A stretch of DNA of 64,000 nucleotides from Sphagnum compactum (GCA_965153455.1 OZ234494.1:6076001-6140000); one strand, 5' to 3'. Shown: positions 4,770 through 39,990, numbered from the stretch's first letter. Numbers and translations: made by a program. Notes: generated from the letters alone by a model not told the origin.

Positions 4770-5000
4770 AGGTTAGGCTTGGCTTGGCTTCGGTAGGTTG
4801 GGAATTGGTAAGTTATTAGTTGGGTTGGATAGGTTGGATTTTATTAGGAAGGTAATGGTAGGCCAGGAAAGGGTTAGGTTGGGTAGATTTAGGTTAGGTA
4901 GGGTTGGGTTGGGTTGGGTTGGGTTGGGTGGGGTTGGGTTGGGTTGGGTTGGATTGGAGTGGAGTGGAGTGGAGTGGAGTGGATTGGGTTGGAGTGGACT
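4770..5000. repeat. Compound pentanucleotide microsatellite (GGGTT/AGGTT)n then (GGAGT)n upstream of the RING-PUF gene
   Basis: Directly visible runs of GGGTT and GGAGT units. Confidence 0.9.
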
Positions 5001-5637
5001 ATAAATTTTTGGGGTCCAATTGCCATTCAAACGAAATGTGGATCCACCAATGATAGGGCCTAAACCAGATGACAAAATCAGATGCCGTAATTTGGCCCCT
5101 CTTTTCTTTGAGACTGTTTGTACCTAAAACCTCTGTGCATTTTTTTTAGGGTTTCAGTTCGCTTCGCCGATTCCTTCACGCGCTTGCGTTTTTGAGGTAC
5201 CCTGCGTCTCTTTCCCTCAATTTTGAACGCGCTCTTCGCCAGTAGAAATGCTACTCCTACAATTGCAAGCCCTCTGCATGTTCGTGGCTTCAGATTGCGC
5301 CAGGAAACGCGTGGATTTTCGGTAGTCTGTAGCTCTGCAATTGTTTTCTGTCTAAGTTTGTGGCTCCGATTTTTGTAGTGGGGTGTGGGGTGAGAGCTTC
5401 TGTTTAGGGTTGGAGGAAGCTATTGTGGCGAGGAATTGCCGCTCGTCTTTAGTCTTTTTAGGGGGGGGGGGGGGGGGGGGAGAATCGATGCGTGGAATCA
5501 CAGGGGAATTTGTTGACAAGGCGAAGTTGGAGTTGGCGTTTGTTGAAGTGTGTAAGGTGGCTGGAGAGGTTCAGTGATTGGAAAGTTGAGGAACTGAGGA
5601 GACGACGTCGGGGAGTTGAGAATCGAAGAGTCAGATA

Positions 5638-5666
<29 letters not shown>

Positions 5667-5668
<2 letters not shown>

Positions 5669-8600
5669 GGCTTCGGTTTGGAAGAATCGAGGGTCTATAG
5701 ATCTTGTAACAGCGAAACCCTCTACTTCATCGACTGAGATTATTCCTGATGACGATTCTTGCGACATTTGCTGTGGAGAGGATGGGGCATGTGACGTCTA
5801 TTTCAGCCCGTGTGGCCACAAGGCCTGCGCCTCTTGTGTGCAAAGGATGCGTATCGCAAACATTTACAAGGTCATTTCAAACCCCTGTGTGTGCTTTAGA
5901 CGTGAGTGAGGAGTGAAGCTAGGGTTAGGGTTTTGGTCGTGTGTCAGTTGTCTTTAGTATCTCTTCCTCAAATAAATAACAACCATTATATGCACTGTGA
6001 TCTCCGTCTGCAACATTCCACAACTAATGAACTCAGAGAGGCGGGAAGCAATCAGTGCAAATGTGACCCTGGGACATTTTCTGTAGTTTCAGTCCTTTCT
6101 TTTCTCTAATTTTTTTACGCCTTTACCAGTCTTCAGCTTCCTGCTCAATCTTGAACTGTGGCCACACCTCCACCTGGTCACTCTGGTAGTACATCAATTA
6201 CCTCGTCATGGAGGATAAGATCTTTTGTCCATGGCAGATATAGAGGTTGGAAACAGGTGGTAAATATGTTGTTAATGTTTGTTAGGGGTTGGTTTGAATC
6301 TCCAAATGGCCACACATCTGCTTGATGGGGGGATGGATTTTTGAGCCAGAACAAAACCATGGCAGATTGCCAAAGTCCACAGAAGTTGCCTGGAGACTCT
6401 CTGTAAAATTTGTTTTCTAGCCACATGTTTCTAGTTTCTACATGACACAATAAATGGGAAAGAAGAATTAGTGAATTGAACTTTTTTGCAAGTGATTAGT
6501 GACATTCTGTTTGTGTGCTTTCCTTATTCATTTATTTTGTTAAATTCTATCTAGTCATTTTGTCTGAGGGGTCATTTGCAAGTTCTTCTAAAGGGATAGT
6601 GAATATCTGAAGTTAAAAGCCAAGTCTGCAACATTCTGTGAATGCTGACAACTTTTTACAAGATGCAAACCACTTTGAGCGGTTGTTGATAAATTTGTGA
6701 AATTGCAGATGTAGCAAATTAGTCAAATCTGGCTGATGTCTGCCAGAGGTAAAGGTGGTTATAAAGTGATTCTTTGTCTTGGACATTGTAGGCCGATAAA
6801 GGAGTGAGGTGCCCATTCTGCCGGCAAGTAATTGAGCTCTATCTTCACTCCCCTCCACCCTCTCCATCTGCTGACTCCCAACTCCCACGGGAAGCAGCCT
6901 CCTTCACTCTCCTCCTAAGTGGTTTGGATACTGGGCCAAGGGTGGTGACAGAAATCAAGAAGCCCTATGGCCGAGGTGGAATAATCTCTATTGGTGGTGG
7001 CAATGACTATATTCCACCCAAAGGAGTAACAGGGAGTGATGGTGGTGGTTTGCGGTCAAGCACTCGAATGGATGAGCTGCTTCCGGGTTATATTGTCCCT
7101 CCTTTGAAAGACACAGATGACATTGTCAGCATGGCTATGGATCGCACGGTATGCTAAAAGCAGACACAGTCTGAATAGTCCTGTTGCCAAATTATTGGCG
7201 TGGCAATATGCTTTTCAATGCTATCACATGATCAAATAGCATAAGCTGCAGGCTAACCTCAGTTGTAATCCACATGGGCTCCATCAGAAGGACAGGCACA
7301 AGCTTGAAATTTGTAGTCAATTCTGTTTGCAGGGTGCAAGGCATTTGGACTTTATGTTACGGGAGGGGTACGTAAAGCGGCATAAGGTGGCAAAGCTTTG
7401 TCGAGAAATGCTCACCCCCTATGCTGCTAAGTTGGCTGTTCATGGTGAGCATTTGTGCCTGTGCTGTGTTGGTAGCTGTATTGGAAATGCAATCTTTTGT
7501 GTTTTATTGTTGTTGTTTTATGTTGGGGTTTCATCTCCTCTCATGTATGTGGTTTTTTGTCAGCTGCAACTTCCTTGGTTGTCTCTAGGAAGCATGGCTT
7601 AAGGGTGTATTTACTTACCAGTCAACATTCTTTTAGGGTTCCTTTTTGGATGCGGTGGAGTTTTCCCCCATTTGGTCTTAGTTGTTCTGTTTATTCCATC
7701 TCAGTCAGGCATATTGCAAAAAGGTTGCATTTGAATGAGGCCTGCAAGATTTTTCAGCTACATGGTGTTTCTTCTGCAAGCTAGAAGTGATTGGGTATGA
7801 AATGAAAGTTCCACAGGCTGGCTCTGCATTGTGAGGAGTTCTGTTCATGTTTGTTGACAGCTTCTGGAAATTATGTGCTGCAACGAATGCTGGAGTATGC
7901 TTCTACTCACAGAGGAGAGGGAAGCAATGCTGAATGCTTCTTCACTGCCATAGTTCGGTCCTTTTGTCAGGAGAAAGGCCTTGTCACAGCTGCACAAGAT
8001 CACCGTGGCACTTTTTCTGTCCAAAAAATGGTCACCATCACTATCCACTCCTGCACATTTGAGAATCTGTATCTGTGCTTCAACACTTCAGCTTGGGTTT
8101 TCTCATTCAGACAATTGATCACCAATGTTGTTCTTCCTCATTCTCACTGACAGCTTTTGTTTCTGGTTAGGCTAAAACTTTTAGTTTAGTATTGCTGGTT
8201 AGATTGGGTTCTAACTTCAGATTAGAAAGAACAATTGGTTAATCACAGTAACATCATTCCCTGAATATATGCATATCCAAGGCTTCATGGTGACCCCTTG
8301 AGAATTGTCAATTGAGAAGGGTGATTTTGTGTACAGCTGGTGTCATTGAAGGGAGCAGAGGAGGCAACCCTTGTGGCTGAGTGCATACAAGGCTCAGTGG
8401 TAAGTGACTCTCTAGAGGAGTGCTTTCCTTGTTCTAGTTAATCTTGAATGGAGTGTGGGCAGAGTTTGACACAGAAGACCTCCTTCCTTTGAAGCTTGCC
8501 TGACTTTTGTTCAAGTTAATGTGTTACATGTTGACCTCACTAGAAAGTTGTCTGTGTAACTGCTCACCAACTGGTCATAAAGCAGTCTTTGGTTCCCAAG

Positions 8601-11600
8601 TGTATGCTTCATTAACCCCTTCAGAAGGTAGTAGTCACCAATATTATGATTTCCTTTTTTGGTGAACTCATGAACAAACTCATGGGGGAGGTCATTTGAA
8701 TTTGTGGACTTGAATTAGGATATTCTTTTGGGCCCATTATGGCTTATGTTGTCCTTCTGGTTTCTTAGCAACCACCTTGCTATTGACACTCACAGGAGAA
8801 TGTCAATTGATGTCTGCAGGTGACACTGGTGCTGGACCAGTATGGAGTTTATGTCCTGGAGCGGCTGGTGTGTCTTGATTCCTTAGTAGTGCGCAGTAGC
8901 ATCTTTTCACAAGAGACTATTTGATCTTTTTGAACCATTGTGTGACTCCATACACTATCTTAACTTTCTTTTCAGGTGTCTTCTTGTTCTTCTCTCTTCT
9001 GCGGTGCATCAACCTGTAGTGTGGTGGTGGTGACAGGTGGAGGCACTGATTACATCAATGAATGCAGCCCAAGGCAAGAAACCAAGAGTACCACCAAAAG
9101 TTGCATTCAAAATACTGGCCCAGATCTGTAAGGAGATACAAGCTGATACCAAGGCTTTGTCAAGTGTTGCCAAGCACCAGGTCAACATTGACACAACAAT
9201 TAGTCTGTGTGGAGTTAAGCAGTTTAACTTTTCACCTCTTTCTTGCCATTTGTGTGATGGTTGATTATTGTTTCTTTAACCTTGTTTTTGATTGATAGGT
9301 TGCAATTTCTGGTCCTTTCTTGGGTTTCTTTAATCACCTCCTCCATTTCTATTGTTTCCTTTCTTTTCTTCTGGTTCATTCTTTTACTTCTTTTTCTGGT
9401 ATTCACTTTTTCTCTGTGTTTGCTCCTCCTTCATGTCAGTTCTGCTTTGCTCTTGTCAAAGGGGGGTTTTTCAAAGGCCATTTTGTTCTGAAAAGTTCAT
9501 CATCTTGTCCCATTTCTTTCTCTTCTTCCTCTTTTCTTGTTGTTTTCCTGCTTCCTTCTCTGCTCCTTTTTCTTCTTGGTTTCTTTGGTCTTCTCCTTCT
9601 CTTTTAGCTTCTGTTTAAATAGCCAGCATCATGGCTGAGTTCTCCTATTACTGCTGGTCAGGTGACAATCAGTCAGTACATTGGTTGGTTGACAAGATTG
9701 ACCTCCACCCACTGCTGGGAGCTGATGAAATCAGTGGGGATATTATGATATTTGGTCAATACCATACATCTATGCTGTCTCTGAACATGTGTGTGACTGT
9801 TGCTGTTGTTCAGACCATTTCTTGGTTCTGGTTTTTGTGTTTTCTTTGTTCTGGTCTTTGTTGTTCTTTCTGGTTGGGTTTGCACTTTTTCCTGTTTGCT
9901 CATATGTTGTTAGATGTGAAATCTCTATGATTGGGTCATATCGGTTTGACACAGATCATATATATGGAGAAGTTCTCAGTACTTAAAGAAGATATTTGCT
10001 TGTGGGAAATGCATTCCTAGTTTTTATTGATGTGTATGCAGAGTACTAAAAACTTTGATTTTCTGTTAAAATGATACAGACTCAAGCCATGAACATGACA
10101 TCTGGAACATATGTCCTTGCCCATCAAATTGTATCTCTGGTTTCTGGAGTGATAATTTGATTGTCTACCAGTTTTAGTTGCTCGGACAGAAGTGGAGTAG
10201 GCATGGAAGATACTAACTTTGATGACTAAAGAGGTAACAGGTGAGTGGGATAATGCTGGTGGAGTGTATAAGGTGGGCGCTTCCGCAAGAGGAGGCAATG
10301 GCAGCGGCTATGGCCCTGGCCCATATGTCTAATGAACTTGCAGGCTCCAAACTGGCCAACCGAACACTACAGGGTGTTCTCAGGTTGGGCCTCACTCTAC
10401 TATTGTCATGTCTCTACTGTAAACAGTCCTGGATTTGAAGGTGCCCACATGTGGGTGATCACAATGATGGCAACTAGTTCTAGTCACCACCAATGTATGG
10501 AGAGGTACTTTCTGAAAGCAAACTGTATACTCCTGTTGGGGGTGGGGCTTTTCTTTTGCAGTCTGGAGGTAAAGGATGTGGCAGAACAGTTAATCAAGGG
10601 ACTACAAGGGCGATATGTGGAATTGGCGACTGATACAGTGAACTTTGGTTTTAAGCTAGTGCGCGCCTGTCTTGCAAGCCCTTGTGGTAATATTGCCTTG
10701 CTAGTATGATGTGTGTGTCTCTTCTATGCCTTAGCTTCATCCTTTCTCCCACTTCAATGATGTCTTTTTTCTTTTTAGTATCTCTGATGTGCTCTTGCTT
10801 TGCATCAGCAGAACATTATGCTTCCCTTATTTCTTTCTCTGTTGCTTTGTCATTTGATTACCTCTGCAGAGTACTGTTAACTATAACTGTTTGTTGTAAT
10901 CTATCCACTGGACAACCATTACACTGAGCCAAGGTAATCTGACAGGAAGCTCAGAGCATAATGTCATAGTAGTGTCCATTCTATAGTACATCACCACTGT
11001 CATTTTATATTCAAAGTGATGTTGCAGAGATTTCTCTGCAAACCTGTAGATAAGTACATCACCAGCAGTCTTAGGCCATGTACAATCATGCTCACGAAAT
11101 TTGTCTGCATGGGATTCTGGTGGGAATGAACAGTGGGAGAAAGTACAAGACTGCTTATAGTGGATGAGCTCCTTTATGCAGTTCTTCATCCTGCAGGACA
11201 CATTTCCTTGCTAGATATTTCTTCTGGCTGCGATGCTCTGGCCTTTGGGCTCTGCCTTCTTACCCAAAGGTGTGTCCTCCCCCCCTTTTCTCTCACAAGA
11301 ATGGTGGTGACAGGAGATATGGCTTGCTGTGCATCCTATGGCTGCCATCTGAGCTCACCCTGTGAATTTGTTTTACCCACTTGATAAATCTCCCCAACTT
11401 TCAGGGGATGTCTCAAGCATGTATCTGCATGTATCTATTCATCATAACTAGCATCACTGTGCCTTCAGTTGTTCTTACCATTGCTAAAGGGTGTCATATA
11501 GACATTAGATAGCTCTAATTTCTCATGCTCTCTCTATATTGCAGTCTTGGAGTGTTGCTGCCTGCCTGTTTCTTGACTTGTGTCCCTTCCAGTGGATTTG

Positions 11601-13899
11601 AACCATTTTGCTGAAGTGAACTCAGCTCACAGTGGAAAGACCTTTTTGGCCATCTGCTTGGGTTGTGGACAATGAGAATATATCAGATACCTTCATGCTG
11701 ATGGCATTCGTTATAACAGCAGAGAGATTTTGTGATTGTTCATGCAAGCTAGGTGATGTGTACCAAAGATGGGACTTCTGGGGAATGATTGCAGGGTGCT
11801 GGATGAGCGGCTGGATACACTGGTGATGGTACTGGAGCGTGATAAGTTCCTGCACTTTCGAGATGGCATGGAAAACTTGCGGAAGCTCTTCTTTGTTGGG
11901 CCCCCACTTCCGTCTTCCTCTCAAGGAAATTCTGAAACCCGATCTTCTACTCTTGCCTCTGTGATGCGTGCCCGTTCTCATGACCCCTCCAGTGTGGAGA
12001 TGGCCTTGGATCCATCCTTCGGACCACGGAAAGGGGTTTCAGACCCTTGGTCTGAGGAAAGCCCTTCAGGAAGCACTTTCCGACTGGAGAAACCATCAAC
12101 CCAAGCAGCTTCACTCCCTCTGTCTCAACCCACCCTACCTCATCTGCATGTATCTCCTTTGGAACTGCCATCAGCTGCAAATTTGGCAGGTCAATCCGAG
12201 CGCCATTCTACTCACACAAATGCCACATCCAGTGGGGGTAGTACAGACCGTTCTGGATCATCTGTCGGAGTGGGAGTGTACACCCCTCCACACTTGAGAG
12301 GGATTTCATCCCCCTCTTTCCTGCCCTCAAATTATTCTTCCACAAGTGTATCACCACTTTCTATGCAGCTTGGAGGGATTTCAGTGTCCTCAGAGCCCAT
12401 CCCTTCCCAGCCTATTTCTGGTCGAATTGCCTCAAAACCTGGGTCTTATGCTCCACCACACATTAACCCGACATTGTCTGCTGTGTCAGCCCCAGCTGGT
12501 TTCAGTGACCCCAGGTTTGGTACAGGTGCATCTAGCAGTGGAAGCTTTGAAAATGAGCATATTAATGGAGACTTTCAGCAGATTTCTTCTGGAGACGGAG
12601 GTCAAAGTTCTGTGCCATTACCAACTGCAGAGCTTTCAAGGGGGGGCTCATTTTCAACACAAGAAAAAATGGATGTAAAAATGTCAAAGTTTCAGGAGGG
12701 ACAAGAGGTAGGAAAAGCAACTGGGGGGCATCGACAGTCTGGTGTATGTGCTGTTTGTAACCAAGATGCAGCAAACACGGTGAGTTCTCAACTCTTGTCT
12801 TAACTTCTTATTCAGTCTCAACTTGATTTTGTCAGGCATCCATTAATGTATGAGCAAGTACTGCTGAAAATGGCATGTTGTAATAATAGTGTTTTCCTTA
12901 TTGCAGGTGCTACTGGATTGCTCACATATGTGCTGCTGTACTACATGCTCTCGCAGCATCAGTGTTTGTCCAATCTGCAGCAACCATGTAACAGGAGTAA
13001 TTGACATTCAGCCTGTAGGCCCACCACCACTCAACCTGTTGCCATCTCCCCGGGCAATGTCAACTTCCCCTTCTCTTGATCTGTGGGACATGCCGAGGTT
13101 GTCAAATTCCAATCGCTCAGTTGACAGCTCCAGCTTTTTAGCCCAAAGCAAAGAAGGTGTCAGTCACCCTTCTTTGGGATTGAGTCAATTTCAAGGGTCT
13201 CTATCAGGCATTGATACTAATCCTAACAGTATGGGATCGTACACAACTACAGTCGGAGGAAGGGCAAATTCTCCCTTTGAGCGTTTGTCTTTAGAGGAGC
13301 AATACCCTGCCAGTGTGGGAACCTCACGTGCAGGAGCTGCAACAGCCAGTAGCATCCCATTAACTCATACAGCAACCCTGCATGTAACTGGCTCTCGTGC
13401 AATCAGCTCTCTCCAACAGGGATCTTACAGAATTGGCTCTCGTGGAATGAGCTCCCAGATAACCGAACCTTATGGAACTGGGTCTGTTGCAGTGGGCTCC
13501 ACCAGTACAACACCATCAATGTCATCAAGTGTTATGACGCCCCATTACCTTCCCTCAGATTTCTATTTACCTGGGAAGTACTCTGGTACAACAGGATATA
13601 GCATAGGGCCTGTTATTTCTTCAGTGGGTTCTTCAGTTCCACCAACTGTTGCTCAAAAGATGGTGTCATCGAGTCCTAGTCTAAGTTTCCCACCACAGCA
13701 ACAAGGTAGTGTATCGCATTTTCTGCCACCACATCGACCTCCAGCACCATATCGCCCTCCTGGATTATACCGACCCCCTGACCTATTTTCTCAGAAGGGG
13801 TCCCCTGCAGTAGTCTCACAGGCTGACATTATGGCCATGCAGTCTATTCAGGCTGGAAACATTGCGCCAGTTGTCCCATCACAATGGAGGACTTATTAG
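5667..13899 (+). CDS. Dual RING-finger, Pumilio (PUF)-repeat protein, 1159 aa; putative RNA-binding E3 ubiquitin ligase
   Basis: 12 GT-AG exons, all phase-compatible, no internal stop: 5667-5870, 6792-7148, 7333-7444, 7861-8030, 8337-8399, 8820-8867, 9037-9180, 10241-10383, 10562-10686, 11134-11269, 11795-12779, 12907-13899 (3480 nt). N-terminal C3HC4 RING CDIC..CGHKACASC..CPFC; PUF-like repeats e.g. VHASGNYVLQRMLE, QDHRGTFSVQKML, LDQYGVYVLERLVE; second RING CAVC..CSHMCCCTTC..CPIC; S/P/G-rich regions on both sides of the second RING. Confidence 0.85.
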
Positions 13900-14987
13900 A
13901 TAGTTGGGCTTCTAGACAGTCATCTTATGACCTGATACTGGTAGAAAGAAGTTGTTTTTGCTTCTTCATTTTTGTTCTTGATCTGGGCGGTGAGTCTTGC
14001 CAAAGAGCTGAAGACGCCAGGTAAGGGATTTGTTTTCCACCAATGCTATCCTGGAACCCAACCAAAACCCCAAGCCCAATGCTCCTAGTCTCTGAAGACT
14101 TGTATTCTTAGAATGAAGAGTGGATGATGTTCAGTCGTGTTGCAAACAGGGCATTTGTTCCATTTTGAAAGCTGGAGGGTTGAGAATCTCTGTGGACAGG
14201 TTCATGTAGTTTTCATAAAGCAAAACCAGGTTACCAACAACCAATCCAAGTCTTTCTGCTGTATGTTGTTTTCTCCGCACTAAGAGTTTGTCCTCTGCTT
14301 GATATACAATCTTCTAGGCCACCATTGCCTTTTTCTTCTTCAAACTGTATCCTGAGATGGCTAAAGGGATCTTCAAAAATCAGAAGATACCTTAATTCTG
14401 TTTTTAAATTGCTGAAATTTAAAAGTTCATTACATTGGCCAAGAATTGAATATAAATTTAAATACATTGCCCAAGTAATTTGTAACAAAATTTTCCTAAA
14501 CCCAAACAAAAGGTCATCACAAAATTGATGAACCACAATAATCAAATATTGTCATCTAAAACTTGAACCATAATTTTCTCATTCTACCTTGTTTGCTTGA
14601 AATCTACCATATTATGACATTCAATGTCACATGTGAAATGAAATCAATAACATATACATAACATTGTAATACAAAAGATATATAAATGTTTTCAGCTCTT
14701 CCTGAATGTTCAGGATCAGCCTTGGGCTATCATATCCTTGGGCAAGCCTTCAAATCCAGGAAGGGCCTCAAAAGGATTCTTTGGAGCATTGCCGTCTCTT
14801 CGGAGACATCTGATAAAAAATTGGAGCACTGCCACTTTAGAGTGGTAAAGACGGGTGCTGTGCGGGTATTGACTTTTAGGAGAACATATAGTCTTGGGTA
14901 TTTTATCACTTTGGTTACCCTATTGGGTAAGGCTTCAAATTCTTCTAAAAATATTCCAGAACCTTGAGGTATGGTTTTATTTATTTA

Positions 14988-36721: not shown

Positions 36722-37975
36722 CTACAACACATCCCCTCTTCCTCGCTGCCGGCTCCTCCGCCTACGACTTGTTGAACCTGCTCCCCCATCCACATTAGTA
36801 CTAGTCCCTTGCCCATAATTTGTGCCCCCACGCCCATTGCTGCCTTGAAGACTCTCCCCCCACAATGCCCCCCTCATCTGGCTGTTCCCAGAATGATGGT
36901 ACCTTCCTCTGACCCTAGATGGCAGTCCTCTTCCCCCTGCCATCGATGGACCAAACACCTGACACAACAAGAACACTGTCCACCAGTTCCCTTCATCACC
37001 AGGAAAATCACTTATATCCTCCTCTTCATGATCTTCCTCATCACCATCAATTACATAATCCCCAAGAACTGTGGCACCTGGCATAGCTGACTGTATGGTG
37101 CTCAGTACATCACCTAGATCCCTTGCCCGCTCTAATTGCCACCAGTCCCGCTGCCTTGCTGGATCAACATCACAGGGACGTGCTGAAGGATGCATGCCCC
37201 GTGCATGCTTCCGCAGGTCCTCATAAGGTCCACTAAATCCACAAGCTTCATGTGCACAGTTCCTTATCTTGCGATTGAGATGCTGCCGGGCAGCATCAAC
37301 AACCCTCCACCCTTCCACTTTGCCTCTGCAAAGAGGGCACAGCAAGTCCCCTACATCAGCCTCCATACCTGATGCAGCTCCTTGTAAGAGCTCCAATGAC
37401 TCACTTCCATCAGCACCCTCTCTTCCCAAATCAACTTCCACAGAGGATCCTCTGCTCATATTCTCAGCCCCTCTTACCACAAGCCCTCGCATAGCCAACC
37501 CTGTTGGTGTTGCAGACATCTCCCCCTCCACCTGCTCCTCCTCCAATCTCTCACTTCTTCTCAATGAGATCCCCGTTACTATCCCCCTAGGTCTCCCTAC
37601 ATCTATTGTCAGCGACTCCTGAGATGACCTATCATGGGTTAAGCTGGAAGCACTGCCTAATGGCCTGTCCACAGCCTTGTCTGAGGAGTCATGAGCTTTT
37701 CTGTATTGGTCCAGGCAGTTTGAGTGCCGGTAGCTGGTGTCACACATATATGGGCGACAACCCTTGTCATGGGATGCACAAATTAGCAGAACTGCATTAT
37801 GGGGATGCTCCATACAAATAGGGCAAGTGGCCTCCTCCCACTCTTTCTTCCATTCACTGTCATCCACAAACTTCGATGAGCTTGCCACTCCCCTGCCATA
37901 ACTAGAATAAGGCTTGTACAGCACGCCCTGTGACTTTGGTGACAATAGAGAGCGGCTGCTAGGATCTTTGGGCAT
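36722..37975 (-). CDS. DUF1644 family zinc-finger protein, 417 aa, single coding exon
   Basis: Hallmark motifs WEEATCPICMEHPHNAVLLICASHDKGCRPYMCDTSYRHSNCLDQY, LLCPLCRGKVEGW, C..EACGFSGPYEDLRKHAR..HPSARP..VDP.RQRDW..LE..RDLGDVLSTI...PGA.VLGDYVI. Confidence 0.95.
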   Translation of the reverse strand: MPKDPSSRSLLSPKSQGVLYKPYSSYGRGVASSSKFVDDSEWKKEWEEATCPICMEHPHNAVLLICASHDKGCRPYMCDTSYRHSNCLDQYRKAHDSSDKAVDRPLGSASSLTHDRSSQESLTIDVGRPRGIVTGISLRRSERLEEEQVEGEMSATPTGLAMRGLVVRGAENMSRGSSVEVDLGREGADGSESLELLQGAASGMEADVGDLLCPLCRGKVEGWRVVDAARQHLNRKIRNCAHEACGFSGPYEDLRKHARGMHPSARPCDVDPARQRDWWQLERARDLGDVLSTIQSAMPGATVLGDYVIDGDEEDHEEEDISDFPGDEGNWWTVFLLCQVFGPSMAGGRGLPSRVRGRYHHSGNSQMRGALWGESLQGSNGRGGTNYGQGTSTNVDGGAGSTSRRRRSRQRGRGDVL

Positions 37976-39990
37976 CTTGACTAGCCCTCCCTATCCTGCT
38001 CTGTGGTTGCAACATCAGTTACATGTACCAAAAAAAACATATGCCACACAGACACAGGTACCCAAGTCTAAACAAGCATATACAGACTAAAATATAGACA
38101 CCCATCTCATAAGCACATGCATAAGAGTCACCACTTAATACACACAATTACAGATAACCAGTCATTTTACTGCATCCAGAATGAGAGAGATCAAATGAGA
38201 CTAGATTGACAAAAACACAAACAGCACCCTTCACTTCCTCTTTCAGACAGAGTGAGCAACCTCCGAGCCTGTGCTGCTCCATTGACTTTGTGCCATTAGA
38301 CCACCCTGAGCCAAGTTTGGGAGGAGCAAGAGGAGTGCAAGGAGGAGTAACAAGATTGACTGGCAGGCTACATGATTATGGCAAACCCTTCCTCAAAAGT
38401 TGACCAGAAGTTGGAGTTACAGTTTGTTCAGATCTCTCAAATAGCTCTACAAATCTCTTAAATAAGCAAAAATTCTCGAAGATGCAAGGACTGTAAGGAC
38501 TCAGGCTGAAACAGCGGAAAGGACACTGGGGAAGCACCTAAGAGAAGGTGCTGCTAAGCAGAGGGCCACACCAAACTCCAGATTTGCTATTGGAAAGAAA
38601 CTCTCAAACAAGCACCTCCAGAGAGACAGTGACAATCAGAATGAGGAGAGAAGGGAGCAGGAGTGTGAGAGAGTTGATGGTTACAAAGTCTTGGCAGGAC
38701 ACTCTGAGCAGATGCTCCAATGGATATACATCCAAGGACCAAGTGTGATACTTGCATATGATCTGACAGACAAGACAAAACTGTTGGGGACTCAAATCAT
38801 GCAGGAAAATCTAAACAAAGTGTCTCTCCACTGAAGCACAAAACTGAAAACATGATTCTTCTAGGTGGCAAGTCATATCCTCATGATCCGGGAAAGGTCA
38901 GCAAAGGAGAAAACAGAAAACCTCATCATATACCTACTCCAAACAAGAATCACAGAGGGATTTCCTGCAACCCCATATCTGCTTCCACATACAACAACCC
39001 CCCAGCAAAATCTGTGTCCAACTAGTACAATCTTGCACACTACAACAGAGGCCTAACTGCCATACAATTGCCACGCCCTTCCACAAAGAGACAAGTTGAC
39101 GACCCAGGGTAATGTTTAAGATGCATGACACCTGAGATTTTTTGCTGATAGATCTCCCCAAACAACGGCCGGTACGCTTGTCTCCTGGCGTCCCACTTCT
39201 TCCTAAGAAAAAGCACAAGTACAGACCACATCAGATGTGACAAACTTGTAAGATCCGTTCCCGACGGCAGAGTCTAAGCAGACAAAACCATACATACTAT
39301 AGTAAGCGTCATAAGACATAATTCCACGAAGAATCAGCAGCCAGAACACAAGAAAAGCCCTCCCCCTCCCTCCCGACCATGATACAAACCCGCCCGAGCA
39401 ACGTCGGCTCCGGACCCTCTTCGTCCCTCTTGGCCGTGAAGGAAAACCAAGGAGAGACAAGAAAAAGCACACAACAACAGAGATGTCGACAGACAGCCAG
39501 ACAGACGGAGACAGGGATGGCCTGGAAGGAAAGAGAGAGGGCAAGGGTAAGAAGAAGAGCAAGCAAGCCCTAAGCAGCAAGCAAACAAACGACAGATGAG
39601 GGAAAGGAGAGACACAAACAGGATCAACGATGCAAGGAAAGAGATGCTATTACTATGTCATACCTTCACGCAACGCTGCTCCGCTCGCCTGCACTCTCGG
39701 CGAAGCTTATGACTTAGTCCTCCTCCTCCTCCTCCTCCTCGGGCAAAATCACCAGATCAATTCCGCGGAAGACTGCGACCCCACAAGCCACAGAAGACGA
39801 AGAGAGAAAAAACAAACAAGAGATGATTAGGGAGAGAAGAACACAGAGACGGAGATGCAAATTTAAGCTGCTGCCGGTGGGAGATGGCAGCGAGCAAATT
39901 GCTCCAGGGATCGAGAGGGGTCGGTGGAGCGACAAGGAGATCTGTACTGCGGAGCAGAGCACCTCCTCCCTCCCTCTCTCTCTGCCCACA
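37976..39990 (-). other. 5' UTR of the DUF1644 gene: non-coding first exon (~39990-39664) and ~1.6-kb leader intron
   Basis: GC/CT-rich ATG-free segment ending in AAG|GTATGA at ~39664 on the minus strand; candidate CAG acceptors ~20-27 nt upstream of the ATG. Confidence 0.55.

What the first reader, a model, noticed from the sequence alone, without database searches (positions are those of the whole stretch)
5667..13899. RING-PUF-RING protein: candidate sequence-specific RNA-binding E3 ubiquitin ligase
Seen: twelve exons splice in frame into 1159 aa with a C3HC4 RING at the N-terminus, about eight Pumilio-like repeats spread over small exons (poorly visible in the ORF track), a long S/P-rich linker, a second C3HC4 RING and a second disordered tail. 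Established: PUF domains read RNA one base per repeat, RINGs recruit E2 enzymes, and the canonical plant APUM proteins I know lack RINGs; RNA-binding E3s such as MEX3 (KH+RING), Roquin and Makorin use other RNA-binding folds. Inference: an undescribed or poorly described fusion that could ubiquitinate proteins on specific mRNPs, a functional analogue of MEX3 in bryophytes. I cannot verify novelty without a search.
Basis: partly seen in the sequence, partly recalled or inferred. Interest (0 to 1): 0.88.

Follow-up and report, generated by a model that had tools for sequence, protein, structure and literature searches.

The report
Moss RING–Pumilio–RING protein gene
This is a real, expressed moss gene whose protein joins a Pumilio-type RNA-binding domain to two RING ubiquitin-ligase fingers, a combination found from green algae to clubmosses that nobody appears to have studied.

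Summary
Twelve GT..AG exons on the + strand (5667-13899) splice in frame to 1159 aa. Stranded polyA RNA-seq shows all 11 junctions (11-51 reads each). At junction 7 the reads use a donor 33 nt downstream (9213), which gives 1170 aa.

The middle domain is a classical eight-repeat Pumilio homology domain, not ARM/HEAT:
- The family profile hits PUM1 at E 8.7e-15.
- hhalign against canonical PUFs gives probability 99.45 and E 5e-22 over repeats 1-8.
- The AlphaFold model has pLDDT above 90 and matches Puf4/PUM2/Puf5 at Z 24.5-25.4. The best ARM/HEAT match is Z 12.5.

Both RINGs keep all eight zinc ligands. The linker and tail are S/P/G-rich and predicted disordered.

Only about half of the repeats keep canonical base-reading residues.

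The family is not bryophyte-specific. Uncharacterised members occur in mosses, Selaginella, Chara, Zygnematophyceae, Mesostigma and chlorophytes. No seed-plant member was seen. Seven literature searches found no description.

Best reading: an RNA-binding RING E3 ligase with a PUF reader. Its function is inferred, not shown.

The parts
5321..5666 (+). 5' UTR (approximate start); a (TCTA)n microsatellite runs into the ATG
   Evidence: X24 depth rises from 4 to 11 to 32 across bins 5000-5962. The repeat was read directly and flagged at 5627-5675.
5667..5870 (+). Exon 1 (aa 1-68): start codon and first six Zn ligands of RING1
   Evidence: junction 5870/6792 has 30 reads. This exon alone gives sub-threshold RING hits (17 bits).
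5760..6821 (+). RING1 (aa 32-78, C3HC4), split by intron 1
   Evidence: Pattern match. All eight ligands are invariant in 7 sequences. Orthologues hit zf-C3HC4_3 and related RING models.
6792..7148 (+). Exon 2 (aa 69-187): end of RING1, a conserved but disordered linker motif (PYGRGG..SIGGGNDY), the N-terminal cap and start of PUF repeat 1
   Evidence: The linker has pLDDT below 50 in both models.
7098..11894 (+). Pumilio homology domain (aa ~171-545), eight repeats spread over exons 2-11
7333..7444 (+). Exon 3 (repeat 1 / start of repeat 2)
   Evidence: junctions have 30 and 23 reads.
7861..8030 (+). Exon 4 (repeat 2 GNYVLQ and repeat 3 GTFSVQ)
   Evidence: PF00806 scores 18.9 bits on this exon alone and 33-34 bits on orthologues.
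8337..8399 (+). Exon 5
   Evidence: 21 and 20 reads.
8820..8867 (+). Exon 6 (repeat 4 GVYVLE)
9037..9213 (+). Exon 7 with two in-frame donors. Donor 9180 gives 1159 aa. Donor 9213 gives 1170 aa and is the one seen in RNA.
   Evidence: Junction 9213->10241 has 11 reads in X24 and appears in contigs of 3 other runs. Both forms are annotated in Physcomitrium (P0002 versus P0003).
9181..9213 (+). Alternative 33-nt segment (VNIDTTISLCG), inserted in the helix1-helix2 loop of repeat 5
   Evidence: The PUF HMM score drops from 86.0 to 80.6 bits when it is included.
10241..10383 (+). Exon 8 (repeat 5 GIMLVE, repeat 6 ANRTLQ)
   Evidence: (38 reads at its 3' junction).
10562..10686 (+). Exon 9 (repeat 7 GFKLVR)
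   Evidence: (51 reads at its 3' junction).
11134..11269 (+). Exon 10 (repeat 8 GCDALA)
   Evidence: (45 reads at its 3' junction).
11795..12779 (+). Exon 11: C-terminal cap of the PUM-HD, the S/P/G-rich disordered linker with SDPWSE and two Y-x-PPH-[LI] motifs, and the first two Cys of RING2
12747..12978 (+). RING2 (aa 830-864, zf-C3HC4_3 / IAP-MGRN1 type), split by intron 11
   Evidence: Pattern. P0001, which is 97% identical to this half, scores 37.5 bits for PF13920. Nearest solved RINGs are MGRN1, MYLIP and XIAP.
12907..13899 (+). Exon 12: rest of RING2, an S/P-rich disordered tail with PAPYRPPGLYRPPDLF, C-terminal QWRTY, and the stop codon at 13897-13899
   Evidence: junction 12779/12907 has 36 reads.
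13900..14308 (+). 3' UTR (approximate end)
   Evidence: X24 depth is 54 in bin 13667-13987, 23 in bin 13988-14308 and 0 after 14309.

Best explanation
The locus is one expressed moss gene. It encodes a single-chain RNA-binding RING ubiquitin ligase, an 'RBUL' whose RNA reader is a PUF domain.

Shown here:
- A 12-exon mRNA.
- An N-terminal C3HC4 RING.
- A classical eight-repeat Pumilio homology domain.
- About 280 aa of S/P/G-rich disordered linker.
- A second, IAP/MGRN1-type C3HC4 RING.
- About 290 aa of disordered tail carrying short conserved motifs.

Inferred:
- The concave face of the PUM-HD binds single-stranded RNA. Base-specific contacts come from at least repeats 2, 3 and 6, which keep the Asn/Thr...Gln type side chains. 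The more divergent repeats 1, 4, 5, 7 and 8 contribute less or differently.
- RING1 has Ile after the first Cys, Pro after the seventh and Arg after the eighth ligand. It recruits a ubiquitin-loaded E2.
- RING2 either dimerises the protein or adds a second E2 site.
- The ligase is thereby placed on particular mRNAs. There it ubiquitinates itself or proteins sitting on the same mRNP. The most obvious candidates are CCR4-NOT or other decay and translation factors, by analogy with MEX3C acting on CNOT7.
- The disordered regions and their conserved short motifs recruit partners.
- The alternative 33-nt donor in exon 7 inserts 11 residues next to the RNA-binding helix of repeat 5 and may tune RNA binding.
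For: One gene, one transcript: all 11 junctions are seen in stranded polyA RNA-seq. The same domain order occurs in Physcomitrium, Ceratodon, Selaginella, Chara and Mesotaenium.

PUF identity:
- The family profile against PDB sequences hits PUM1 at E 8.7e-15 and Puf4 at E 4e-11, the latter over profile positions 161-300.
- 10 of 10 tested database hits to either half of the central domain are canonical PUF proteins, with PF00806 scores of 182-248 bits.
- hhalign against a canonical PUF alignment gives probability 99.45, E 5.2e-22 and 273 aligned columns covering repeats 1-8.
- The AF2 model of family member P0011 has pLDDT mostly above 90 over residues ~150-510.
- All 42 listed Foldseek rows are PUF-family structures.
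- A Foldseek-independent search gives Puf4 Z 25.4, PUM2 25.2, Puf5 24.5 and FBF-2 21.6. Nop9 scores 16.9, APUM23 15.3 and the best ARM/HEAT match 12.5.
- The window's own spliced protein scores 80.6-86 bits against a canonical-PUF HMM, versus at most 4.5 bits for 200 shuffles.

Constraint on the RNA face: the Gln of repeat 2 (GNYVLQ) is the only column invariant in all 22 family sequences, from chlorophytes to mosses. The Phe/Gln of repeat 3, the Glu of repeat 5 and the Arg/Gln of repeat 6 are invariant in the 7-sequence streptophyte alignment.

RINGs: all eight ligands of both RINGs are invariant in 7 sequences. Orthologues score 58-60 bits for PF13920 with two stretches. RING2 is nearest to the RINGs of the E3s MGRN1, MYLIP, XIAP/cIAP and MUL1.

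Precedent: human RING-type RBULs exist with KH, CCCH, RRM and K-rich RNA-binding domains, and MEX3C ubiquitinates CNOT7 to activate deadenylation (PMC5707401, passages read). PUF proteins recruit CCR4-POP2-NOT (PMC5855632, passages read).
Against: - No biochemical datum exists for any family member. RNA binding and E3 activity are both inferred.
- Three of eight repeats (1: ARxxD, 7: FKxxR, 8: CDxxA) lack the Gln/Glu edge-contact position. Repeats 4 (VYxxE) and 5 (IMxxE) have hydrophobic residues where canonical PUFs have Asn/Ser/Cys. A full eight-base code is therefore unlikely, and RNA binding could be weak or non-specific.
- Pfam detects only one repeat above threshold in orthologues (33-34 bits). 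In the window, taken exon by exon, nothing reaches threshold.
- RING1 is modelled with only moderate confidence (pLDDT 51-83).
- RING2 has Ser/Asn, not Arg, after the last ligand.
- The structure evidence comes from homologues (P0011 and P0005), not from the window protein itself. The spliced window protein could not be handed to the folding tool.
- The E2-contact and base-code rules used here are recalled, not taken from a call.
Confidence: 0.62

Rival explanations
1. The PUF-like domain no longer reads RNA. It serves as a protein-binding, substrate-recognition scaffold of an ordinary RING E3, or binds structured or non-specific nucleic acid as Puf-A and Nop9 do.
For: Half of the repeats have non-canonical residues at the base-contact positions. 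The Pfam PUF_NOP9 model also scores near threshold (24-29 bits against a cut-off of 27). Helical repeat domains are common substrate receptors (general knowledge).
Against: The fold matches classical eight-repeat, sequence-specific PUFs (Z 20.5-25.4) better than Nop9, APUM23 or Puf-A (Z 12.1-16.9). The base-contacting Gln of repeat 2 is the single invariant residue across 22 sequences. The corresponding positions of repeats 3 and 6 are invariant among streptophytes.
Confidence: 0.2
2. The protein acts as a conventional PUF translational repressor or decay factor. The RINGs are non-catalytic, serving as dimerisation modules, RNA-binding zinc fingers or regulatory modules as in MDMX or BARD1.
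For: RING2 lacks an Arg after the last ligand. RING2 belongs to the IAP/MDM2-like group, in which dimerisation through the RING and the strand after it is common (recalled). Conserved residues V-I-D-I follow RING2. Two RINGs in one chain could pair.
Against: Both RINGs keep all eight ligands over the whole streptophyte range. RING1 is the best-conserved part of the protein, at 67-90% identity. RING1 has Ile, Pro and Arg at the positions that I recall as E2 and linchpin contacts (read directly).
Confidence: 0.13
3. The architecture is an artefact: two adjacent genes (RING-PUF and a RING-tail gene) were merged by the reader.
For: An automatic gene call on near-identical DNA (P0001, 667 aa, 97% identical) starts at an in-frame ATG inside intron 10 and lacks RING1 and the PUF domain. 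Chlorophyte and Mesostigma members lack RING2.
Against: 45 split reads join exon 10 to exon 11, and every other junction is covered by 11-51 reads in one stranded polyA library. The full-length architecture is annotated independently in 5 genera.
Confidence: 0.02

Closest known systems
Classical PUF proteins (human PUM1/PUM2, yeast Puf4/Puf5, C. elegans FBF-2, plant APUMs)
   Same: Both have an eight-repeat PUM-HD crescent. The profile hits PUM1 at E 8.7e-15, hhalign probability is 99.45 over repeats 1-8, and structural Z is 20.5-25.4. Repeat 2 keeps the NYxxQ motif.
   Different: The PUM-HD lies between two RING fingers instead of at the C-terminus of a RING-less protein. Repeats 1, 4, 5, 7 and 8 have non-canonical contact residues. 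A plant PUF survey does not mention RING or ubiquitin (PMC2848763, term search; its supplementary alignment could not be seen).
MEX3 family (KH + C-terminal RING RBULs)
   Same: Both put an RNA-binding module and a zf-C3HC4_3-type RING in one chain, with long disordered regions. The family profile weakly hits the MEX3C RING (E 0.0024). MEX3C ubiquitinates CNOT7 on bound mRNAs (PMC5707401), which is the working model proposed here.
   Different: There are no KH domains, so this is not a MEX3 family member. It has two RINGs, and RING2 is internal rather than at the extreme C-terminus.
IAP/MGRN1/MYLIP-type RING E3s (Pfam PF13920)
   Same: RING2 has the same ligand spacing, C-x2-C-x11-C-x-H-x3-C-x2-C-x6-C-x2-C. 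The best solved matches are MGRN1 (E 9e-10), MYLIP (2e-8) and XIAP (1e-7).
   Different: The context is wholly different (PUF, second RING). The residue after the last ligand is Ser/Asn.
Other RNA-binding RING E3s (NOT4: RING+RRM; Makorin and Roquin: RING+CCCH/ROQ)
   Same: The same logic of an E3 tethered to RNA. The human RING RBUL families listed are CCCH, KH, RRM and K-rich (PMC5707401).
   Different: None of those uses a PUF domain. 'PUF' and 'Pumilio' occur 0 times in that paper.
Nop9 / Puf-A / APUM23 (11-repeat nucleolar PUFs, PF22493)
   Same: Borderline Pfam match (24-29 bits against a cut-off of 27).
   Different: The structural match is clearly weaker than to classical PUFs (Z 12.1-16.9 against 20.5-25.4; Foldseek TM on target 0.27-0.29 against 0.6-0.72). 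The domain length fits eight repeats.

Membership tests
PUF / Pumilio homology domain (PF00806) | Significant match to PUF repeat models or PUF proteins | tested here: met
   Orthologues score 33-34 bits against a cut-off of 26.3. The family profile hits PUM1 at E 8.7e-15. hhalign gives E 5.2e-22. The spliced window protein scores 80.6-86 bits against a canonical-PUF HMM, with shuffles at most 4.5. Window exon 4 alone scores only 18.9 bits.
PUF / Pumilio homology domain (PF00806) | Eight tandem three-helix repeats forming a crescent | tested here: met
   This was tested on models of homologues, not of the window protein. P0011 has pLDDT above 90 over ~150-510. All 42 listed Foldseek rows are PUF-family structures. 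Z is 25.4 for Puf4 and 25.2 for PUM2, against 12.5 for the best ARM/HEAT match.
PUF / Pumilio homology domain (PF00806) | Canonical base-contacting residues (positions 12, 13 and 16 of helix 2) in each repeat | tested here: inconclusive
   R2 NYxxQ, R3 TFxxQ and R6 NRxxQ are canonical-like. R4 VYxxE and R5 IMxxE are partly so. R1 ARxxD, R7 FKxxR and R8 CDxxA are not. The code itself is recalled.
PUF / Pumilio homology domain (PF00806) | Sequence-specific binding of single-stranded RNA | not testable with these tools
   Needs EMSA, Bind-n-Seq or CLIP.
RING-type E3 ubiquitin ligase (C3HC4 RING-HC) | Eight zinc ligands in cross-brace spacing, in both fingers | tested here: met
   The regular-expression match finds aa 32-78 and 830-864. 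The ligands are invariant in 7 sequences. PF13920 scores 58-60 bits with 2 stretches in orthologues and 37.5 bits in P0001, which is 97% identical to the window's C-terminal half.
RING-type E3 ubiquitin ligase (C3HC4 RING-HC) | E2 binding and ubiquitin transfer | not testable with these tools
   Only the presence of Ile33/Pro76/Arg79 in RING1 and Val/Pro in RING2 was read from the sequence. Their role is recalled.
MEX3 | Two KH domains N-terminal to the RING | tested here: not met
   No KH hit appears in any Pfam scan of 4 orthologues at E<=0.01, nor in the other family members scanned at E<=0.001. The RNA-binding module is a PUM-HD.
   The best ARM/HEAT rows score Z 11.5-12.5 with rmsd 6-8.6 Å. 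Classical PUFs score Z 20.5-25.4. No ARM/HEAT sequence hit appears among 48 PDB hits.
Nop9/Puf-A-type PUF (PF22493) | Eleven repeats in an L- or C-shaped arrangement | tested here: inconclusive
   Pfam scores 24-29 bits against a cut-off of 27. Z is 12.1-16.9, lower than for classical PUFs. The ~375-aa domain aligns to repeats 1-8 of canonical PUFs.

The most novel reading that the evidence does not exclude
A natural RNA-sequence-guided ubiquitin ligase. The PUM-HD docks the protein on a defined motif in target mRNAs. The two RINGs then ubiquitinate CCR4-NOT subunits, co-bound regulators or nascent chains in cis, coupling mRNA identity directly to protein ubiquitination. On this reading the module is ancestral to the green lineage. 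RING2 was added in the common ancestor of Charophyceae, Zygnematophyceae and land plants, and the module was lost before or in seed plants. A conserved alternative splice in PUF repeat 5 switches RNA specificity.
Probability: 0.3. Interest if true: 0.8.

Novelty: new variant of a known kind. Interest (0 to 1): 0.6.

Why it matters
PUF proteins are the textbook modular RNA readers. They are thought to act by recruiting effectors such as CCR4-NOT. RNA-binding E3 ligases are known with KH, CCCH, RRM and K-rich RNA-binding modules, but none with a PUF domain.

A conserved natural fusion of a classical PUM-HD to two RINGs would be a direct, genetically tractable link between RNA sequence recognition and ubiquitination. 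Physcomitrium has orthologues and efficient gene targeting.

The family's presence from chlorophytes to lycophytes, and its apparent absence from seed plants, would explain why Arabidopsis-centred work has missed it. It would also mark a lost layer of post-transcriptional control.

It is also a natural precedent for the engineered PUF-effector fusions used in synthetic biology.

Tried and rejected
- My first hand-built model used wrong small exons at 10080-10139 and 10201-10233, a weak acceptor at 10569, and a short exon 10. Alignment with orthologues exposed this. The corrected model is the one RNA-seq supports.
- Pfam on single window exons gave only sub-threshold hits, because introns split every domain.
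- The third word-indexed homologue search, with an 11-sequence profile, found nothing new and even missed Closterium. It is therefore weak evidence on distribution.
- The ESM Atlas search gave no usable hit.
- No whole genome is held for this window, so paralogue number in this moss is unknown.
- Rfam gave no family at gathering score in the whole window. In intron 7 it gave only a chance-level sR52 match (18.7 bits against 50, E 0.3). A C/D-box-like look of 9715-9790 was not substantiated.
- The P0017 hit to the family profile is an artefact: alignment A1 included the Closterium fused model P0009, which carries a NOT2/3/5 C-terminal domain.
- I considered a complex prediction for RING1-RING2 pairing or RING2 homodimers and did not run it. 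RING-RING pairs tend to pass by likeness to solved dimers, and the controls use unrelated proteins, so a pass would have moved my odds little.
- I rejected the ARM/HEAT reading, the two-gene artefact and MEX3 membership (no KH domains).

Full report
**Observation**

The window is eukaryotic DNA with intron-rich genes. GC is 41-48% in genic stretches and 23-31% between them. Reading 5400-14200 and the stop-to-stop frames, I first built a 13-exon model by hand. It was in frame but wrong in the middle.

A search with the last exon returned full-length relatives from Physcomitrium patens and Ceratodon purpureus. It also returned a 667-aa JGI gene call that is 97% identical to the C-terminal half. 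Aligning these relatives to my model showed which small exons were wrong.

The corrected model has 12 exons, all with GT..AG introns, and gives exactly 1159 aa. The 667-aa gene call (P0001) starts at an in-frame ATG inside intron 10. It is therefore a truncated automatic prediction, not evidence for a separate gene.

**Transcript evidence**

17 RNA runs hold 36-43% of the sampled words of the 8.35-kb stretch. That is about the exonic share.

I laid one stranded polyA raw-read run (X24) and three metatranscriptome contig runs. All 11 introns of the model are spanned by split reads in X24: 30, 30, 23, 21, 20, 20, 11, 38, 51, 45 and 36 reads. The first mates lie on the - strand, so the RNA is + sense.

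The listed junction between exons 7 and 8 uses the donor at 9213, not 9180. This adds VNIDTTISLCG in frame and gives 1170 aa. Both forms are annotated in Physcomitrium (P0002 with the segment, P0003 without), and Ceratodon P0004 has it. The 9180 junction was not among the rows shown (one row was withheld), so I cannot say whether it is used here.

Four other joints (9541/9623, 9640/9963, 9738/11027, 10869/10985) occur only in metatranscriptome contigs, with 0 reads in X24. I disregard them.

**The central domain is a PUF domain**

Sequence evidence:
- Pfam on four relatives gives PUF (PF00806) at 33-34 bits against a cut-off of 26.3. That covers only one repeat, GNYVLQ. PUF_NOP9 scores at or near threshold, 24-29 bits against 27.
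- A profile of seven family members, searched against PDB sequences, hits human PUM1 (E 8.7e-15), PUM2, Drosophila Pumilio and yeast Puf4. The Puf4 hit (E 4e-11) aligns over profile positions 161-300.
- In the exhaustive HMMER search of 1.84 billion representatives, many hits to profile positions 161-301 or 341-470 are proteins of 430-900 aa. I tested 10 of them with Pfam, and 10 of 10 are canonical PUF proteins at 182-248 bits.
- Profile-profile comparison with an alignment of those ten gives probability 99.45, E 5.2e-22 and 273 aligned columns. These run from repeat 1 to repeat 8.
- The window's own spliced protein, scored locally against an HMM of the ten canonical PUFs, reaches 86.0 bits (1159-aa form) and 80.6 bits (1170-aa form). 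It matches in two pieces, aa 176-327 and 360-481. The best of 200 shuffles of the core reaches 4.5 bits.

Structure evidence:
- I folded family member P0011 (561 aa, RING1 plus the PUF region) with a 22-sequence alignment. Mean pLDDT is 76.4, and pLDDT is mostly above 90 over ~150-510.
- In Foldseek against the PDB, all 42 listed rows are PUF-family structures. TM-scores on the target are 0.53-0.72 for natural classical eight-repeat PUFs. They are only 0.27-0.29 for Puf-A and APUM23.
- A search that does not depend on Foldseek gives Puf4 Z 25.4, PUM2 25.2, Puf5 24.5, FBF-2 21.6 and S. pombe Puf1 20.5. Nop9 scores 16.9 and APUM23 15.3. The best ARM/HEAT proteins score 11.5-12.5.

**How good a reader is this PUF?**

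I used the hhalign register and the 22-sequence family alignment with the window protein added. The helix-2 motifs of the window protein are:

| Repeat | Window protein | Canonical template |
|---|---|---|
| R1 | GARHLD | GCKFLQ |
| R2 | GNYVLQ | GNYVVQ |
| R3 | GTFSVQ | GTRAVQ |
| R4 | GVYVLE | GHHVIQ |
| R5 | GIMLVE | GCCVLQ |
| R6 | ANRTLQ | GNYVVQ |
| R7 | GFKLVR | GSNVVE |
| R8 | GCDALA | GNFVIQ |

R2, R3 and R6 look able to make canonical edge contacts. R4 and R5 keep an acidic residue but have hydrophobic partners. R1, R7 and R8 have lost the position. The recognition code itself is recalled, not taken from a call.

The Gln of R2 is the only column invariant in all 22 family sequences, from chlorophytes to mosses. 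F/Q of R3, E of R5 and R/Q of R6 are invariant in the seven streptophyte sequences. I read this as selection on the RNA face. I also expect a shorter or partly degenerate recognition site rather than eight read bases.

The alternative 11-residue segment sits in the helix1-helix2 loop of repeat 5, next to that face.

**The RINGs and the rest of the protein**

- Both fingers match the cross-brace pattern. RING1 is C-x2-C-x13-C-x-H-x2-C-x2-C-x17-C-x2-C at aa 32-78. RING2 is C-x2-C-x11-C-x-H-x3-C-x2-C-x6-C-x2-C at aa 830-864.
- All ligands are invariant in the window protein, three moss sequences, Selaginella, Chara and Mesotaenium.
- RING1 is the best-conserved segment, at 67-90% identity. The PUM-HD is 38-78% identical and RING2 38-72%. 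The two long segments are only 19-33% identical.
- The two long segments are S/P/G-rich and fall below pLDDT 50 in the full-length model of P0005. In that model the PUM-HD scores 79-94, RING2 73-79 and RING1 51-68.
- RING2 is closest to the RINGs of MGRN1, MYLIP, XIAP/cIAP, MUL1 and CGRRF1. MEX3C is a weak hit at E 0.0024.
- Short conserved motifs survive in the disordered parts. PYGRGG..SIGGGNDY lies between RING1 and the PUF. The others are SDPWSE, two Y-x-PPH-[LI] motifs, PAPYRPPGLYRPPDLF and the C-terminal QWRTY.

**Distribution**

The word-indexed search with the first 520 residues of P0005 found members at 44-48% identity over 87-95% of that region. They come from Chara braunii, Mesotaenium endlicherianum, Selaginella moellendorffii and Closterium.

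The exhaustive search gave 7416 hits at E<=1e-3. These are mostly RING-only or PUF-only. Only 106 reach E<=1e-10 and 15 reach E<=1e-30.

I looked up 30 of the 150 listed representatives:
- Named organisms: Closterium spp., Mesostigma viride, Chlorokybus atmophyticus and Physcomitrium.
- Named chlorophytes: Symbiochloris, Neomeris, Apatococcus, Ostreobium, Micractinium, Myrmecia, Haematococcus, Enallax, Cymbomonas, Gonium and Chlamydomonas sp.
- One mollusc protein matches only RING2.
- The rest are unnamed metagenome or Logan fragments.
- 0 of 30 carries a seed-plant, fern, liverwort or hornwort name.

RING2 is present in mosses, Selaginella, Chara, Mesotaenium and Closterium NIES-68. It was not detected in the 1084-aa Mesostigma protein or in the chlorophyte proteins scanned. 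This suggests that RING-PUF is ancestral in green plants and that RING2 was added in the lineage leading to Charophyceae, Zygnematophyceae and land plants.

The limits of this evidence matter:
- The library holds one representative per 50% cluster.
- Only the top 150 hits are listed, and 120 of them were not looked up.
- The third word search added nothing.
- No eukaryote genome collection could be searched.

'Absent from seed plants' is therefore a well-motivated but unproven statement.

**Literature**

Seven full-text searches found no paper describing a RING+PUF protein or naming any of five gene identifiers.

| Paper | What I did | Result |
|---|---|---|
| Plant PUF survey (PMC2848763) | Term search, | 0 'RING', 0 'ubiquitin'; counts 11 Puf-like genes in Physcomitrella. 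Its supplementary alignment could not be seen, so I cannot tell whether these genes are among the 11. |
| Plant RING repertoire paper (PMC6118397) | Term search, | 0 'PUF', 0 'Pumilio' |
| Chara PUF paper (PMC7247198) | Term search, | 0 'RING' |
| RBUL paper (PMC5707401) | Passages read, | Lists CCCH, KH, RRM and K-rich RNA-binding domains for human RING RBULs; recounts that MEX3C ubiquitinates CNOT7 to activate deadenylation |
| PUF review (PMC5855632) | Passages read, | Describes PUF recruitment of CCR4-POP2-NOT |

**Mechanism and verdict**

Shown:
- One expressed gene.
- The RING, PUM-HD, disordered, RING, disordered architecture.
- Conservation concentrated on the zinc ligands and on part of the RNA face.

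Inferred:
- The protein binds specific mRNAs through the PUM-HD.
- It uses RING1, and perhaps RING2, to ubiquitinate itself or mRNP neighbours. CCR4-NOT is the most natural candidate.

I put about 0.62 on that reading. The rivals are a PUF domain turned protein scaffold or non-specific binder (0.2), catalytically silent RINGs in a conventional PUF repressor (0.13), and an artefactual fusion (0.02).

The protein works like the MEX3, NOT4 or Makorin class of RNA-binding E3s but belongs to none of those families. It is a member of the PUF superfamily and of the RING-HC E3s. I rate it a new variant of a known kind. It is unstudied rather than undiscovered, because orthologues sit in public databases as 'uncharacterized' or 'RING-type domain-containing' proteins with PUF and RING Pfam labels.

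Noticed in passing
window 9181-10240 (intron 7): In the polyA run, RNA depth across this intron (18-24) is as high as in neighbouring exons. In the metatranscriptome contigs, depth in the 9494-9814 bin (200-256) is far above that of the flanking exon bins. Many reads match only 9576-9607 or 9710-9740 and run on into unlike sequence (16 and 15 reads at 9710/9740). A repeat or another transcribed element probably sits here. Rfam finds nothing, and 9715-9790 has C-box-like and D-box-like words but no support.
   Followed up: partly
window 5871-6791 (intron 1): Depth in intron 1 is 10-15, against about 30 in exons 1-2 of the same polyA run. This suggests appreciable intron retention, which would truncate the protein inside RING1.
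   Followed up: no
window 9181-9213; P0002/P0003/P0004: The alternative in-frame 33-nt donor extension in exon 7 is conserved at protein level in three mosses (VNIDTTISLCG / VIIDNTVSLCG / VIIDSTISLCG). It falls in the loop before the RNA-binding helix of PUF repeat 5.
   Followed up: partly
proteins P0009, P0159, P0017 (Closterium): In one Closterium strain a family member is modelled as PUF fused to a NOT2/NOT3/NOT5 C-terminal domain. In another strain the same region is split into two models with consecutive protein accession numbers. This is probably a merged neighbour gene. It is still a curious adjacency, given the known link between PUF proteins and CCR4-NOT.
   Followed up: partly
window 5461-5481 and 5627-5669: The 5' UTR holds a run of about 20 G and a (TCTA)n microsatellite that ends in the start codon. 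The microsatellite made read laying skip 5627-5675.
   Followed up: no
window 36722-37990, - strand: A 422-aa open frame with a Cys/His-rich stretch (CPICMEH...CRPYMC) lies in a GC-rich patch. It is probably a single-exon zinc-finger gene and looks like the plant DUF1644 type, from recall only.
   Followed up: no
protein P0001 versus window 11757-11795: An automatic gene call on near-identical DNA starts at an ATG inside intron 10 and so reports only the RING2 half (667 aa). Such truncated calls would hide the RING-PUF-RING architecture in domain-architecture surveys.
   Followed up: yes
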